From: Octopus sinensis
Taxonomy: Eukaryota
Length of the DNA stretch: 64,000 nt
Reading direction: 5' to 3'
Assembly: GCF_006345805.1 (NCBI RefSeq)
Contig: NC_043005.1
Coordinates: 94,984,001 to 95,048,000 of the forward strand
Position numbers: made by a program. Positions within the stretch are counted from its first letter, which is position 1, and each line of letters begins with the position of its first letter. This document shows positions 1 to 64,000 of the stretch, one piece after another.

Positions 1-3000
1 ACATATATACATACACACATACGTACATACATACATATATGCATACCGACATTTACTTAAACACACGCACATACGATATATGTGTACGCGTAAGAGTGTT
101 TGCATTTACACACACATAGAAATGTGTATAAATATGTGTGTTTCTCTATATGTGTGAACGCATATATATTTGTCTACCTTTAATACACACGCTGGCAATG
201 ATTTTAGTGGAGGCTTGTTGATGGGTAGATGGCGGCGGGTATCATTTACTATCGCACCAACCTTTCGTCTTCTCTCTTCATAAGGGTAGGGAGCGAAATA
301 TGAACCGGAAACATTCCAGATACCCAAACGCAGAGTCACTCTAAGTAAGGATGAATATAATACCTTGGTAATTCACTTTTATAGTTTTTCTTTACCATTT
401 TTGGCTTTATTACCTTTACCTTATAAGTTTCAGCGAAATATGGGTAGATGTTTTTACATACCCCATTAACAATCTCATACTTCACCCTTTCGTTTATAAG
501 AAATAGGAGATATAATTGTATGTTTCATAAGTAGATTAAATAAAATTAAGACAAGTAAAGAAGTAATTAACGCTATACGTGAATAATTAAAACAGAAAAG
601 AAAATTAATTCTGAGAGAAAAGAAAACAACTTCTTTAACGTATACAGTATTACTACCGCGAAAATTTATTATTAAAGCAATATTTCGTGGCTGAATGAAC
701 AGCCTTGGCAATTGTTTTTCGTATTATATCAGACTTTCAGACTTTTGTATATTCATTCCAGTTTGGTCCGGTCTCTTTCCATCTGTTTCTCACTCGTTCT
801 CTCTTTCTCCCTCTTAAACACACATACACACATAAACATGTACACACACATACATATACATTTATATAAATATACATACATACACACACACACACAAAGA
901 TATACACACACACACACACACACACACACACACACACACACACACACATATATATATATATATATAGGAAAAATAAGAATAAACGTAAGTTCATGTTTAA
1001 GTTCCTACGCGAGTTTCACCATTATGGTTATGTTGGAACCCTAAGATGGTTGTTCCAAATGCATATAGATGACTAACTATAATGGATCCTCAGAGAACAC
1101 TTTATTGTATCAACTAACAAAGACATTTTTCTTTAGCTTCTTTCACCGGTTGTCAAGCGGTGATGGGGGAACAAACACAGACACAAAGTTACACGCACAC
1201 ATACAAATATATATGTATATGTATATATGCACGACTGGCTTCTTCGGGCTTCTGCCTACTAAATCCACTCACAATGCTAAAGTACAAGCCCATTTACCCG
1301 AGGTGCCACGCAGTGGGACTGAACCCCGAACCAAGTTTCTTACCACACACCCATATACATACATACATACATACATACATACATACATACATACATACAC
1401 ACATACATACATACATACACACATACATACATACATGCATACATGCATACTTATGTATGTATCATCAATTCTTTTTCAGATGATATTCTCAGGAATGCAA
1501 GCGCAATTTATTAAATGAATTTGTGTGTGTGTGTGTGCATGTAAACTTAGTTGCGTGTGCGTGATCTGGGCACACGTTTTCGTGCACTTACAGCCTTTCA
1601 GGGTATTCCATATATCATTGCAAGGTTAACACAGACAATAAATAGGAAACCTTTTAAAACTACTTAAACTTCTATTCACTGATCTCAAACGTTATTGAAA
1701 TGCTATTGCTGATATGGTGTAAAATGTACCATACAGAAGAAATTTATCTCCTAGCGAGTTCGCTATGCAATTTTTTATCTACAGTCGTAAACTTACTAAA
1801 TTTCATTCTACCCTAAAACAACTCTCTTCCTAATCGTTTTACTCTTAAGCAACTTTCAAATACCTTCCCTTACATAAATACCATTATATATTTTTTTTTT
1901 ATTTTCTCTCCTTTCATAAAGAAAATTTTCGGAAGAGATTTTTCACGAGTCAAAAATTTGTCTTTGTAAGATTTGGCAGTGCTAAATCCATCAAACAACA
2001 CAAAGAATGTTTTAAGAAATTTTATCCTAAGACCTGTTTTTAGACAAAATTTCCCAAGTGTTCCTTATTTTGAGATTATTTTCCCCTTAGGATCTCCTTA
2101 CTGTCTTCAAACGAAAACCTTCTTATGGAATATGCCATGCGTGTTTAAATCTTTCTACTATAGTCACAAGGCCTGAAATTTTGGTAGAAGGGGCTTGCCG
2201 ATTACATTGACCCCAGTACTTGACTAGTATTTCTACCAATGATCCTACCAATTCCTCGCCTGATCATGCATGTATAATAAAGTTATGAAAAAAAAAGAGA
2301 AATTGCTCAGAAATGCTCATGCGTATTAAATTAGCTTTTATATCACTATTTTTCACCGAGATTAATTTTGTCTTTGATCCTTACAGAGTCGATAAAACAG
2401 AGCCCCAATCCAACGTGGAGGAATTGGCTTAATTGTTAGAAGGTCAGCTGATATAACTTGCGGTGTCTGAGTTCTTTTGCACTCTGATAGAAACGCCTTC
2501 GGCGGCAGTGGTGCCAAGAGATATCGGGCTTTAAGTGGTAACCTTTACCTTGGGCAACATCAGTGACGCGTAGAGGAAAGATTTGCATGTGTGAGTAACT
2601 ACTAATCTTCATAAAAAAAACCTTGTCCAGGAATGTGCATAAGATGTAGTGATCGACATATGTCCCCTATGGTAACTGCTTTGGTAGTTTCTCGCATCCG
2701 AGAAAGTTCTGCAATTGTTTGCTGCATCACGTGCACAGATGACTTGTTAATAGTAATCAAACGTTTGTTCTGCACATTGGCCAATTCCCTCCACCAAATC
2801 AACATTGCTTGTACAAGTGCATGGTACCACACGTCAGATGTCGAAGTAGTTGCAGAGCAACTTGATATGAACTGTTTTGCTCAAGAATACAACGCTTCAC
2901 CTGGTCCGGGATTCGAAACCACGAACTCGTGATTGTGAGTGCAACACCCTAACCACTAGATTACGCGCTCCAATATTTTTAATTTACACGCACACAACCT

Positions 3001-63000: not shown

Positions 63001-64000
63001 TTTAATGATATAGTTTCACATACGAACACACTCACATGCATATGTGTACGCATACATACATACATACATACATACATACATACATACATACATACAAACA
63101 TACATACATGCATGCATGCATGCATACATACACACACACACACATACACACAAATACATACATACATATTCTGATATGTGTCAGCATATAGAAGGATTGC
63201 CGTTTAATCCCAAGATTAAAGAGACCAGTCGCACAAAAAAGAGCTAAATACGTTTTAGTACGTAGACTATATTTATTTATATTTTAAATATAAACCCCAC
63301 TACGATGCCAACATCTCAAATGTCTCCATCTATTTCAGGTGCATGTGTGTGTGTGTGTTTGTGTGTGTGTGTGTATATGCCTGCACCCGAGGAAAGTCGT
63401 GAGACTTGAAACGTTAGTCCCCCACCCACCCAGCGTAGGGTTTACATTATTTAAACTAAAAATGTATGTTTAGATAAAAAGAGAGAAAGAAAGAAAGAAG
63501 AGAGAAAGAAAGAAAGAAAGAAAGATAGATAGATAGATAGATAGATAGATAGATAGATAGATAGATAGATAGATAGATAGATAGATAGATAGATAGATAG
63601 ATAGATAGATAGATATGTTTCTTTATTGGCCACACAGGGCTGAACACAGAGGGGACAAAATACAAAGTAGAGCTTTTCTTTCTCACAGAAATGTCATAAT
63701 GTAAAAGGGGAAATAGATTAGGTCTATTCGTCGAAAGAAAAGCCTACGGAAAAGATAGATAAATAGATTGATCCACGAACCCATAGAAATAATCCTACAT
63801 GTCCATCTCTAATATTCTATTGTAATTTTAGTAATCTTTCTCATCTTTCTCTCACTCTCTCTCTCTCTCTCTCTCTCTCTCTCTCTCTCTCTCTTCTTAC
63901 TTTCCTCTGATTTAGTTCCAATCTATCTCCAACTGTTCCTCTACTTCACCTCTCCGCACACACACACACACACACACTCTCTCTCTCTCTCTCTCTCTCT

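What the first reader, a model, noticed from the sequence alone, without database searches (positions are those of the whole stretch)
1001..63420. Dense population of hammerhead-ribozyme islands in and beside microsatellites (at least 12 motifs in 64 kb)
Seen: many short ORF-less islands in or next to (TA)n/(CA)n tracts contain a type-I hammerhead fold, at 1001-, 5579+, 18941+, 23545+, 24126-/24633+, 29152-/29657+, 39275+, 41142+, 42875-, 44640-, 46610- and 63383+. Most share little primary sequence, so they represent several families. Established: Penelope-like elements carry minimal type-I hammerheads with palindromic stem III in their pLTRs, and non-autonomous hammerhead retrozymes that make circular RNAs exist in animals. 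Inference: this genome hosts a diverse, probably unannotated set of microsatellite-targeting self-cleaving retroelements, about one per 5 kb here, which could cut host intronic transcripts on either strand.
Basis: partly seen in the sequence, partly recalled or inferred. Interest (0 to 1): 0.85.

Follow-up and report, generated by a model that had tools for sequence, protein, structure and literature searches.

The report
Hammerhead ribozyme relics of Penelope-like retroelements
Several short, gene-less islands beside TA-repeat tracts in this window do carry hammerhead self-cleaving RNA motifs, most of them decayed, and they look like leftover tail ends of a known class of jumping genes rather than something new.

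Summary
Partly confirmed. Of the 14 listed positions:
- **5 are complete type-I hammerheads that chance does not explain:** 1001-, 24126-, 24633+, 39275+ and 42875-. The first four have an intact core.
- **5 are probable decayed relics:** 46610-, 29152-, 29657+, 63383+ and 23545+.
- **3 cannot be told from chance:** 5579+, 41142+ and 44640-.
- **1 is only a core heptamer:** 18941+.

That makes about 8 independent loci, not 12 or more.

Position-blind descriptor scans gave 3-6 hits. Dinucleotide shuffles and permuted-core decoys gave 0.0-0.5.

Rfam finds nothing at gathering score. One sub-threshold Hammerhead_HH9 match supports 39275+.

Features I did not search for also fit:
- an extra A after A9;
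- C3-G8 / U3-A8 covariation;
- palindromic helix III;
- (TA)n 38-105 nt 3' of the cleavage site;
- two head-to-head inverted pairs.

No RT or GIY-YIG ORF lies in the window.

All of this matches published Penelope-like-element hammerheads and their (TA)n insertion bias. These are therefore new members of a known kind, and mostly fossils. Activity, genome-wide density and intronic location remain untested.

The parts
1001..1098 (-). Complete type-I hammerhead. It has core CUGAGGA and a U/U mismatch at the base of a 7-bp helix II that carries a ~53-nt apical insert. It also has GAAA, a helix III of 2 bp plus a tetraloop, A17 and a 5-bp helix I.
   Evidence: Strict descriptor hit, against 0.02 per shuffled window. 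Decoy control. The MFE fold keeps helices I and II. No Rfam hammerhead match at E<=10.
948..965 (.). (TA)n tract that starts 41 nt 3' of the 1001- cleavage site.
24126..24216 (-). Complete type-I hammerhead in the left arm. It has core CUGAUGA and a helix II of about 10 bp with one bulge and a 46-nt apical part. It also has GAAA, an 8-nt self-complementary helix III, A17 and a 6-bp helix I.
   Evidence: The constrained HHR fold is -10.5 kcal/mol against an MFE of -12.5 kcal/mol. No Rfam hammerhead match.
24633..24723 (+). Identical hammerhead in the right arm.
24091..24758 (.). Head-to-head inverted pair. The arms are 24091-24348 and 24501-24758 (258 nt, 99.6-100% identical) with a 152-nt spacer. 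Both 3' ends point outward. The left end abuts (TA)n at 24055-24094; the next (TA)n on the right starts at 24875.
39264..39328 (+). Canonical metazoan-type type-I hammerhead with the U3-A8 covariant core UUGAAAA. It has a 4-bp G-C-closed helix II, a palindromic 6-nt helix III, A17, a short inner helix I and an outer stem. (TA)n at 39366-39413 starts 57 nt 3' of the site.
   Evidence: min-HHR descriptor hit with 0 of 200 shuffles giving any hit. Rfam Hammerhead_HH9 at 22.9 bits, E=8.6e-4 in a 166-nt search, with loop 1 and loop 2 letters matching the consensus..
42875..42912 (-). min-HHR with one core substitution (A6 to U). It has an extra A after A9, a 4-bp G-C-closed helix II with a tetraloop, GAAA, a 4-nt palindromic helix III, U17 and a 5-bp helix I. 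(TA)n at 42756-42775 starts 105 nt 3' of the site.
   Evidence: Rfam gave 0 matches at E<=10.
46609..46646 (-). Decayed relative of the 42875- motif (34 nt at 82% identity). U4 is C and position 16.2 is changed; helix II is intact and helix I is 4 bp. (TA)n at 46490-46515 starts 99 nt 3' of the site.
29656..29696 (+). min-HHR-like relic with 2 mismatches to the U3-A8 core. It has an extra A, a 6-bp G-C-closed helix II, GAAA, a 4-nt palindromic helix III, U17 and a 5-bp helix I.
   Evidence: expected 0.005 per shuffle. No Rfam hammerhead match.
29151..29191 (-). Inverted partner of 29656+. The arms 29094-29231 and 29615-29751 are 88.5% identical, with their 3' ends outward. It has 1 core mismatch, and helix I is lost.
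23545..23579 (+). min-HHR-like relic. G8 is A, and helix II is 3 bp with an A/C mismatch at its base. It has GAAA, a 4-nt palindromic helix III, C17 and a 4-bp helix I. An imperfect (CA)n tract lies about 90 nt 3' of the site.
   Evidence: class S4: 4 hits against 0.35. No Rfam hammerhead match.
63382..63420 (+). Probable 5'-truncated relic. U4 is C. It has a 4-5-bp helix II with a tetraloop, GAAA and a 4-nt palindromic helix III, but no helix I. (TG)n lies directly 5' of it.
   Evidence: class of 5 hits against 0.26-0.40 expected.
5585..5626 (+). Indeterminate. Helix I is 6 bp and helix III is palindromic, but A9 is U and helix II is not closed at the core.
   Evidence: a post-hoc test: 3 hits against 0.32 expected, and 2 of the 3 are the 24-kb pair.
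41148..41181 (+). Indeterminate. The core is exact and GAAA follows 12 nt later, but helix II is weak and helix I is displaced by 5 nt.
   Evidence: this pattern: 4 against 1.41.
44640..44677 (-). Indeterminate. It has an exact core, GAAA and an 8-nt palindromic helix III, but helix II is only 3 bp and there is no helix I.
   Evidence: this pattern: 1 against 0.22; 43 of 200 shuffles reach 1.
18946..18952 (+). Rejected. A lone CTGATGA heptamer with no GAAA in the 108 bases read 3' of it.
   Evidence: Such heptamers are not enriched (22 against 24.3).

Best explanation
The supported islands are fossil 3'-terminal pieces of Penelope-like retroelements (PLEs) or of their non-autonomous derivatives. 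Each carries the element's type-I hammerhead a few tens of bases upstream of its 3' end.

Inferred life cycle, taken from the literature:
- The element RNA carries the hammerhead in its terminal repeat.
- Because helix III is very short and palindromic, two hammerheads pair through helix III and cut as a dimer. This releases unit-length RNA from tandem or read-through transcripts.
- The GIY-YIG endonuclease nicks (TA)n-rich DNA, and reverse transcription from the 3' end makes copies.
- Many copies are 5'-truncated, and some are joined head-to-head as inverted pairs.

Shown here:
- The motifs themselves, and their excess over chance.
- Their place near an end that abuts (TA)n.
- The two inverted pairs.
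- The absence of coding capacity.
- Several unrelated sequence families.

Inferred:
- The link to PLE.
- The targeting of (TA)n.
- Any cleavage.

As they stand, the copies are solo or inverted, with no direct tandem. Only 4 of about 10 keep an intact core, so most are probably inert.
For: 1. Excess over chance.
- Strict descriptor: 3 hits against 0.02.
- min-HHR descriptor: hits where 0 of 200 shuffles give any.
- True core 4 against 0.05 for 120 permuted-core decoys on the real sequence; 6 against 0.50 with one mismatch.
- Class without helix I: 5 against 0.26-0.40.

2. Features not demanded by the scans, read from alignment A1 of 7 min-type motifs.
- A9 in 7 of 7.
- An extra A after A9 in 6 of 7.
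- Positions 3 and 8 form C-G in 3, U-A in 3 and C/A in 1.
- These are the traits that PMC4209133 (parts 1-2 read) lists as arguing against randomness: a nucleotide between 9 and 10.1, G10.1-C11.1, palindromic 15.2-16.2 and U3-A8 variants.

3. Rfam.
- An independent sub-threshold HH9 match at 39264-39328 has matching loop 1 and loop 2 letters.

4. (TA)n association.
- (TA)n starts 38-105 nt 3' of the cleavage site at 1001-, 24126-, 39275+, 42875- and 46610-. The figure is 4.9% for random oriented positions.
- Among the 7 loci found by position-blind scans, 4 have it. My hand binomial gives about 2e-4.

5. Inverted pairs.
- Two head-to-head pairs place their hammerheads about 420-590 bp apart on opposite strands.
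- PMC4209133 reports dual min-HHRs 100-700 bp apart on opposite strands.
- PMC8557442 (passages) describes inverted 5'-truncated copies.

6. PMC8557442 supplement (part 2 read).
- All but one of the Hydra-clade PLE families listed prefer (TA)n; that one has no entry in the column. The list includes an Octopus bimaculoides family.
- The hammerhead table for these families shows type-I hammerheads near the 3' end, 30 of 31 Hydra-clade rows on the sense strand. Many of them have a U...U pair flanking helix II, as in 1001-.
- One family is recorded with a 5'-truncated inverted copy carrying the hammerhead on both strands.
Against: - **No coding partner.** No RT or GIY-YIG domain appears in 367 of the 482 ORFs of at least 55 aa that I scanned (115 low-complexity ORFs were dropped). 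The PLE link therefore rests on anatomy alone.
- **Rfam is almost silent.** Hammerhead models do not see 6 of the 7 motifs searched at E<=10, and none reaches gathering score. The HH9 hit would have E of about 0.3 if scaled to the whole window.
- **Inverted pairs are not specific.** Three other near-perfect inverted repeats involve elements without hammerheads (14096-14535, 41403-41817, 17210-17669).
- **Other retroposons here carry their own tails.** Two SINE-like families in the window end in (TA)n or (CA)n. The (TA)n beside the islands may therefore be a tail rather than a target.
- **The pairing evidence is partly circular.** Pairing of helices I and II was required by the scans. No second copies were available for a real covariation test.
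- **Cores are damaged.** Six of the ten motifs carry substitutions at positions regarded as essential (U4, G5, A6, G8).
Confidence: 0.68

Rival explanations
1. The islands are SINE-like, hammerhead-bearing short retroposons with their own (TA)n 3' tail, in the manner of the schistosome Sm-alpha elements. A LINE partner mobilises them. They are not PLE fragments aimed at microsatellites.
For: - Two SINE-like families in the same window end in their own (TA)n or (CA)n tails.
- A non-LTR RT tail ORF at 6435-7583(-) is followed by simple repeats.
- The islands are 200-400 bp long and ORF-less.
- 39275+ is the classical metazoan type-I form also found in such SINE-like repeats (PMC6765202 passages).
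- The right arm of the 24-kb pair ends in only 6 bases of TA-like sequence.
Against: - No Pol III-type head was recognised: ARAGORN found 0 tRNA-like genes.
- The head-to-head pairs with 3' ends outward, and the min-HHR traits, are those described for PLEs (PMC4209133, PMC8557442).
- A 2026 preprint (abstract only seen) argues that animal non-LTR retrozymes themselves derive from PLE terminal repeats. That would merge this rival with the main reading.
Confidence: 0.17
2. All or most motifs are chance matches in AT-rich, hairpin-rich, microsatellite-laden DNA, picked out by eye.
For: - The loose patterns are not enriched.
- My own relaxed scans returned two false positives: 33549-, a plain imperfect hairpin, and 57305-.
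- Rfam gives no match at gathering score.
- 4 of the 14 listed sites fail.
Against: - Full-architecture hits exceed both the shuffles and the permuted-core decoys run on the real sequence by 10- to 100-fold.
- Unrequested features recur: the extra A, 3-8 covariation, (TA)n on the 3' side, and the HH9 loop letters.
Confidence: 0.05
3. The inverted pairs at 24.1-24.8 kb and 29.1-29.8 kb are foldback or MITE-type DNA transposons, or fold-back duplications or assembly artefacts. On this view the hammerhead is incidental.
For: - Long terminal inverted arms at 99.6-100% and 88.5% identity.
- Three more near-perfect palindromes lie in the window. Two of them are centred on TA-rich tracts and have 2- and 15-nt spacers.
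Against: - Each arm carries a complete or near-complete hammerhead at the same distance from its outer end.
- The two pairs share no sequence with each other, yet they share that plan.
- The other palindromes are tail-to-tail; these two are head-to-head.
Confidence: 0.1

Closest known systems
min-HHRs of Penelope-like elements (Cervera & de la Pena 2014, PMC4209133; parts 1-2 of 4 read)
   Same: - Type-I plan with a 4-5-bp helix I.
- An unpaired nucleotide between A9 and 10.1.
- A G10.1-C11.1 closing pair.
- No helix III, or a palindromic one.
- U3-A8 covariant cores.
- Great sequence diversity within one genome.
- Mostly solo copies, taken to be truncated elements.
- Dual motifs on opposite strands 100-700 bp apart.
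   Different: - Here helix II is 3-6 bp rather than the 7-8 bp reported for schistosome families.
- Several copies carry U4C, A6U or G8A changes that the paper does not describe.
- No flanking RT ORF is present.
Hydra-clade and other (TA)n-preferring PLEs (Craig et al. 2021, PMC8557442; passages plus supplement part 2)
   Same: - (TA)n at the insertion.
- A canonical type-I hammerhead within roughly 30-145 nt of the 3' terminus.
- A U...U pair flanking helix II (seen in 1001-).
- A 3-4-bp palindromic helix III.
- Inverted 5'-truncated copies.
   Different: - Loop 2 in the listed Hydra hammerheads is 3-10 nt. In 1001- and the 24-kb pair, helix II carries a 46-53-nt apical insert. Only two plant PLE-X entries, marked as deviating, have 29-35-nt loops.
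- No sequence match could be tested. My one 16-nt term from the window was absent from the supplement, and every passage and part I read of the supplement showed protein, not DNA, sequences.
Non-LTR retrozymes of animals (Cervera & de la Pena 2020, PMC7229834, passages; 2026 preprint 10.64898/2026.07.22.740005, abstract only)
   Same: - Short (170-400 bp), AT-rich, ORF-less units with a type-I hammerhead.
- A helix III of 2 bp plus a tetraloop, and a U/U mismatch at the base of helix II, are both described there.
   Different: - Retrozymes are head-to-tail tandem arrays that yield circular RNA.
- No hammerhead-bearing tandem array exists in this window.
Rfam Hammerhead_HH9 / Hammerhead_1 (clan CL00010)
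   Same: 39264-39328(+) aligns end to end with HH9, including letters of loops 1 and 2.
   Different: - The score is 22.9 bits against a gathering score of 52.
- Helix I is 4 pairs shorter.
- The core is the U3-A8 form.
- The other motifs searched give no match at all.

Membership tests
Hammerhead ribozyme, type I | Conserved core: CUGANGA (or the U3-A8 covariant), GAAA, and H at position 17 | tested here: met
   Met by 4 of the 14 listed motifs: 1001-, 24126-, 24633+ and 39275+. One substitution in 42875-. One or more core or helix III substitutions in the 5 relics..
Hammerhead ribozyme, type I | Three helices around the core, with helix I open-ended | tested here: met
   Met by 1001-, 24126-, 24633+, 39275+, 42875-, 29656+ and 23545+. 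MFE folds keep helices I and II for 1001-, 24633+, 42875-, 29657+ and 39264-39328.
Hammerhead ribozyme, type I | Match to a curated Rfam hammerhead model at gathering score | tested here: not met
   0 matches at gathering score in 64 kb. At E<=10, 1 of 7 motifs searched matched: HH9, 22.9 of 52 bits.
Hammerhead ribozyme, type I | Compensatory changes in the helices among copies of one family | tested here: inconclusive
   The only same-family pairs are the two inverted pairs and 42875-/46610-. Their helix II strands are identical. No eukaryotic DNA collection was on hand to fetch more copies.
Hammerhead ribozyme, type I | Site-specific self-cleavage after position 17 | not testable with these tools
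   This needs in vitro transcription of monomers and dimers.
Penelope-like element (terminal repeat / 3' end fragment) | ORF with a telomerase-like RT plus a GIY-YIG endonuclease | tested here: not met
   No RVT or GIY-YIG match in 367 ORFs or in the 18 long ORFs scanned first. This is expected for truncated or non-autonomous copies, so it does not exclude a PLE origin.
Penelope-like element (terminal repeat / 3' end fragment) | Hammerhead close to the 3' end of the unit | tested here: met
   The cleavage site lies 38-105 nt from the (TA)n boundary at 5 loci. In the 24-kb pair the arms end about 35-40 nt past the motif.
Penelope-like element (terminal repeat / 3' end fragment) | Insertion bias for (TA)n or other microsatellites | tested here: inconclusive
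   The association with (TA)n is clear: 5 of 8 loci against 4.9% at random. Target and own tail cannot be told apart without empty sites. SINE-like families here carry their own tails.
Penelope-like element (terminal repeat / 3' end fragment) | Tandem pseudo-LTR arrangement and/or an inverted 5'-truncated copy | tested here: met
   Two head-to-head inverted pairs are present. No direct tandem is present. Caveat: three other inverted repeats without hammerheads lie in the window.
Penelope-like element (terminal repeat / 3' end fragment) | Sequence homology of the island to the 3' end of an autonomous PLE of the same genome | not testable with these tools
   No eukaryotic genome collection was available. 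No PLE consensus DNA turned up in the PMC8557442 supplement passages and part that I read; they showed proteins.
Non-LTR retrozyme | Head-to-tail tandem repeats of 170-400 bp, each with a hammerhead | tested here: not met
   TRF and self-BLAST show no tandem copy of any island. The only long-period tandem (184 bp, 60002-60366) gave no hit in any of my hammerhead scans.

The most novel reading that the evidence does not exclude
The two intact-core families at 1001- and 24.1-24.8 kb may represent an undescribed structural variant of the PLE hammerhead, in which helix II carries a 46-53-nt structured insert.
- Rfam models would miss such motifs.
- Standard descriptors that cap the loop 2 length would probably miss them as well; that part is my inference and I did not test it.
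- They might correspond to what Craig et al. logged only as 'HHR_half_core' in cephalopod and other Naiad 3' UTRs.

If so, PLE clades now said to lack hammerheads would in fact have them. This genome would then hold hammerhead relics at roughly one locus per 8 kb, an order of magnitude denser than the published counts per genome imply.
Probability: 0.2. Interest if true: 0.5.

Novelty: new member of a known kind. Interest (0 to 1): 0.3.

Why it matters
If the window is typical, hammerhead-bearing PLE debris is a sizeable and easily missed part of this genome's repeat load. It is missed because Rfam finds none of these motifs at curated thresholds.

That matters in three ways:
- **Repeat annotation.** These islands would need their own models to be annotated.
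- **The origin of (TA)n tracts.** It bears on whether these elements target such tracts or seed them.
- **Ribozyme search descriptors.** Long helix II inserts and U3-A8 or single-substitution cores escape standard models.

It does not open a new kind of biology. The element class, its ribozyme, its dimer mode and its (TA)n bias are all published.

Tried and rejected
- **Rfam.** The whole window at E<=10 gave 479 rows, but the 150 shown are all microsatellite look-alikes of miRNA families, so any hammerhead rows were hidden. I then spent the remaining 6 searches on single islands.
- **Loose motif tests.** Hairpin + GAAA + palindrome, and core + spacer + GAAA, showed no enrichment. They cannot support 41142+ or 44640-.
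- **Post-hoc helix I test for 5579+.** It was not decisive.
- **Covariance model of the min-type motifs.** I dropped this. MAFFT alignment A1 places the helix II gaps inconsistently, and I cannot edit the alignment.
- **Organism and gene context.**
  - A protein search with the RT-tail ORF gave 638 hits. The two closest (90% and 79% identity) are unnamed, and the named ones come from cnidarians, a shrimp, a fish and a starfish, so I make no taxon call.
  - A search with the weak MBD-like ORF found nothing.
  - Whether the window is intronic therefore stayed unchecked.
  - From recall only, the SINE-like repeats resemble cephalopod SINEs. No call supports this.
- **Literature.**
  - Lunse et al. 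2017 (PMC5785218) is not held. I saw only its entry in the reference list of PMC6765202.
  - A 16-nt term from the 24-kb arm was absent from the PMC8557442 supplement.
  - bioRxiv supplements are closed, so those of the 2026 preprint were not seen.
- **Collections.**
  - Genome contigs holds only bacteria and archaea, so I did not use it.
  - No related eukaryotic loci were fetched.

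
Full report
**What the window is.** It is 64 kb at 33-41% G+C, with no N. It is extremely rich in microsatellites: 152 TRF rows and 143 perfect runs of at least 16 bp covering 8.0% of the bases, 41 of them (TA)n. I could not name the organism with the tools.

**Checking the observation.** I read all 14 listed positions and parsed them against the type-I hammerhead plan. 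The plan runs, 5' to 3': helix I strand, CUGANGA, helix II hairpin, GAAA (its last A opens helix III), a short helix III ending in U, H17, helix I strand.

- A strict scan of both strands required an exact core, helix I of at least 4 bp, helix II of at least 3 bp, a helix III hairpin or palindrome, and H17. It returns 24633-24723(+) and 24126-24216(-).
- Allowing a mismatched first pair of helix II adds 1001-1098(-).
- That is 3 hits, against means of 0.01-0.04 in 100 dinucleotide shuffles.

Cervera & de la Pena 2014 (PMC4209133, parts 1-2 of 4 read) give the traits of PLE 'min-HHRs'. I coded those as a second scan: core CUGANGA or the U3-A8 covariant, an optional nucleotide after A9, a G-C-closed helix II, a palindromic helix III and helix I.

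| Core mismatches allowed | Hit | Shuffle expectation |
|---|---|---|
| 0 | 39275-39312(+) | 0 of 200 shuffles give any hit |
| 1 | 42875-42912(-) | 0 of 200 shuffles give any hit |
| 2 | adds 29656-29696(+) | mean 0.005 |

Shuffling destroys natural hairpins, so I also ran 120 decoys with permuted core letters on the real sequence.

- The true core gives 4 hits against a decoy mean of 0.05 (max 2).
- With one mismatch it gives 6 against 0.50 (max 4).
- A scan without helix I gives 5 hits against 0.40 (shuffles) and 0.26 (decoys). This supports 63383+ and 29152- as members of an enriched class.

- The heptamer alone is not enriched (22 against 24.3).
- Hairpin + GAAA + palindrome is not enriched (11 against 13.95).
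- Core-N7-17-GAAA is not enriched (4 against 1.41; 12 of 200 shuffles reach 4).
- My relaxed scans also returned two sites I regard as false: 57305-57393(-), and 33549(-), which is a plain imperfect hairpin.

**Verdict per site.**

| Class | Sites |
|---|---|
| Strong | 1001-, 24126-, 24633+, 39275+ (intact cores); 42875- (A6 to U) |
| Probable relics | 46610-, 29152-, 29657+, 23545+, 63383+ |
| Indeterminate | 5579+, 41142+, 44640- |
| Rejected | 18941+ |

Notes on the probable relics:
- 46610- shares 34 nt at 82% identity with 42875-. U4 is C, and 16.2 is changed.
- 29152- and 29657+ are arms of an 88.5% inverted pair.
- 23545+ has G8 changed to A.
- 63383+ has U4 changed to C and no helix I. 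(TG)n abuts it on the 5' side, as if it were truncated there.

Notes on the indeterminate sites:
- For 5579+, a post-hoc helix I test gave 3 hits against 0.32 expected, and two of the three are the 24-kb pair.
- For 41142+ and 44640-.

That makes about 10 motifs at 8 independent loci. Intact cores survive in 4 motifs at 3 loci.

**Rfam.**
- There is nothing at gathering score.
- The whole-window E<=10 table is swamped by microsatellite look-alikes of miRNA families.
- Five targeted E<=10 searches covered 7 motifs. One hammerhead match came back: Hammerhead_HH9, 22.9 bits (gathering score 52), E=8.6e-4 for a 166-nt search, at 39264-39328(+).
- That alignment is end to end. It shows the loop 1 and loop 2 letters of the classical metazoan type-I ribozyme, plus an outer stem closing helix I.
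- Scaled to 64 kb by hand, the E-value would be about 0.3.
- The other four regions gave no hammerhead row.

**Features I did not ask for.**
- *Core positions.* In MAFFT alignment A1 of the seven min-type motifs:
  - A9 is present in 7 of 7, and an extra A after A9 in 6 of 7.
  - G5 is present in 6 of 7.
  - Positions 3 and 8 read C-G three times, U-A three times and C/A once.
- *(TA)n on the 3' side.* A (TA)n run starts 38-105 nt 3' of the predicted cleavage site at 1001-, 24126-, 39275+, 42875- and 46610-. Random oriented positions have one 20-130 nt downstream in 4.9% of trials.
  - Counting only the 7 loci found by position-blind scans, 4 have it (hand binomial about 2e-4).
- *Inverted pairs.* Two loci are head-to-head inverted pairs with their 3' ends outward:
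  - 24091-24348 / 24501-24758: 258 nt, 99.6-100% identical, 152-nt spacer.
  - 29094-29231 / 29615-29751: 88.5% identical.
- *Folding*:
  - The MFE of 1001-, 24633+, 42875-, 29657+ and 39264-39328 keeps helices I and II.
  - The hammerhead-constrained fold of 24633+ costs 2.0 kcal/mol over the MFE.
  - That of 1001- costs 6.2 kcal/mol over the MFE.

**Surroundings.**
- The islands are ORF-less. Of 482 stop-to-stop ORFs of at least 55 aa, I dropped 115 as low complexity and scanned 367 against Pfam. None matched an RT catalytic domain or GIY-YIG.
- The only mobile-element domains lie elsewhere:
  - zf-RVT at 6435-7583(-);
  - a mariner-type transposase and its HTH at 47972-49035(-).
- Self-BLAST shows the islands share no sequence beyond the links named above.
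- No island is tandemly repeated.

**Caveats from the same window.**
- Three further near-perfect inverted repeats lack hammerheads: 14096-14314/14317-14535, 41403-41602/41618-41817 and 17210-17378/17501-17669.
- The first two are tail-to-tail copies of two SINE-like families whose own 3' tails are (TA)n and (CA)n.
- Inverted duplication is therefore not peculiar to the hammerhead islands, and 'carries a (TA)n tail' is a live alternative to 'targets (TA)n'.

**Comparison with what is known.**

*PMC4209133* describes:
- PLE min-HHRs with exactly the unrequested traits seen here;
- U3-A8 variants;
- extreme diversity within a genome;
- mostly solo, presumably truncated copies;
- dual motifs 100-700 bp apart on opposite strands;
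- very low activity in vitro, and then only as dimers.

*PMC8557442* (passages) states that:
- PLEs form tandem and inverted insertions and show a microsatellite bias;
- hammerheads lie in the pseudo-LTRs;

*The PMC8557442 supplement*:
- It lists (TA)n as the insertion preference of all but one of the Hydra-clade families listed (that one has no entry), and of the cephalopod Naiads.
- It tabulates Hydra-clade hammerheads. Many have a U...U pair flanking helix II, as in 1001-, and a palindromic helix III of 3-4 bp.
- It records one family with a 5'-truncated inverted copy carrying the motif on both strands.
- By my arithmetic on its positions and lengths, those motifs end some 30-145 nt before the element terminus. 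That is the range seen here.

*Other papers:*
- PMC7229834 (passages) describes helix III of 2 bp plus a tetraloop as the invertebrate norm, and a U/U mismatch at the base of helix II in one axolotl family.
- PMC6765202 (passages) summarises the dimer model.

**What differs.** In 1001- and the 24-kb pair, helix II carries a 46-53-nt apical insert. The distance from core to GAAA is 66-70 nt, which is longer than anything in the Hydra table. That probably explains the Rfam silence for these two.

**Mechanism.** The best reading is that these are 3'-terminal fossils of PLEs or of their non-autonomous derivatives.
- The hammerhead serves the element and not the host. It trims element RNA out of longer transcripts by pairing two copies through the palindromic helix III.
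- Target-primed reverse transcription at (TA)n-rich nicks then leaves 5'-truncated and inverted copies.
- *Shown:* the motifs, their statistics, their position, the inverted pairs and the lack of ORFs.
- *Inferred:* PLE parentage, targeting and any catalysis.
- In their present solo or inverted state, with 6 of 10 cores damaged, most copies are unlikely to cut anything.
- A transcript through an inverted pair would fold into a long hairpin that buries the ribozyme.
I could not even establish that the window is intronic.

**Novelty.** The finding is real but ordinary in kind, and its parts are in print:
- hammerheads in PLEs (2014);
- the dimer mode, cited in PMC6765202 to Forster 1988 and Lunse 2017 (I could not read the latter);
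- the (TA)n bias and inverted copies (2021);
- the derivation of retrozymes from PLE repeats (2026 preprint, abstract only).

The modest points of interest are the long helix II variants and the apparent local density of one locus per about 8 kb. A single window cannot generalise that density.

**Left unchecked.**
- There was no eukaryotic DNA collection, so I have no further copies, no covariation test and no autonomous partner.
- bioRxiv supplements are closed.

Noticed in passing
14096-14535: A perfect 219-nt-arm palindrome with a 2-nt spacer. It is made of two SINE-like copies joined tail to tail at their shared (TA)n tail. The copies look to me like they have Pol III box-like heads, but ARAGORN calls no tRNA. 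It may be a real fold-back duplication at a hairpin-prone tract, or an assembly artefact.
   Followed up: partly
41403-41817 (also 13875-14074, 21730-21968, 44340-44585, 50070-50299, 61063-61305 and others): A second SINE-like family of about 240 bp has a (CA)n tail and at least 12 copies or fragments in the window. One pair forms a 200-nt-arm, 97% palindrome around (AC)n/(TG)n. That pair scores 87 bits on Rfam MIR4371, below its gathering score of 110.
   Followed up: partly
17210-17378 / 17501-17669: A 169-nt inverted repeat, 98% identical, with a 122-nt spacer. Its identity is unknown. No hammerhead plan was seen by eye.
   Followed up: partly
50278-51790: A 1.5-kb (ACAT)n array of 378 units. 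It produces dozens of sub-threshold Rfam miRNA look-alike hits (mir-297, mir-3149, mir-466).
   Followed up: no
46879-46952: A degenerate telomere-like hexamer array (AGGGTT-type, 12 units, 67% matches). It lies about 230 nt 5' of the 46610- island, on the island's strand as the C-rich complement, and a (CA)n run separates the two. Telomere-complement stretches beside hammerheads are known from endonuclease-less PLEs, but there they are combined with the 3' motif. I take this one as probably a coincidence.
   Followed up: no
6435-7583 (-): A 383-aa open frame with a zf-RVT domain (the C-terminal part of a non-LTR reverse transcriptase). It is 90% identical over 60% of its length to an unnamed database protein. 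Simple repeats at 6034-6239 follow it on its strand.
   Followed up: partly
47972-49035 (-): A mariner/Mos1-type transposase remnant. Transposase_1 matches at E=3.6e-23 and HTH_48 at E=2.8e-10, in two frames.
   Followed up: no
60002-60366: A 184-bp unit repeated twice in tandem at 89% identity. It is SINE-like, and it gave no hit in any of my hammerhead scans.
   Followed up: no
24960-25031 and 25215-25286: A 72-bp perfect direct repeat, 255 bp apart, just right of the (TA)n that follows the 24-kb inverted pair.
   Followed up: no
53326-53700 (-): A 125-aa open frame with a borderline methyl-CpG-binding-domain match (21.6 bits, cutoff 21). A search for longer relatives found none.
   Followed up: partly
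The first is a plain imperfect hairpin whose 'core' pairs with the GAAA side. The second has no supporting feature. Both are taken as false positives, in line with the 0.3-0.5 expected.
   Followed up: yes
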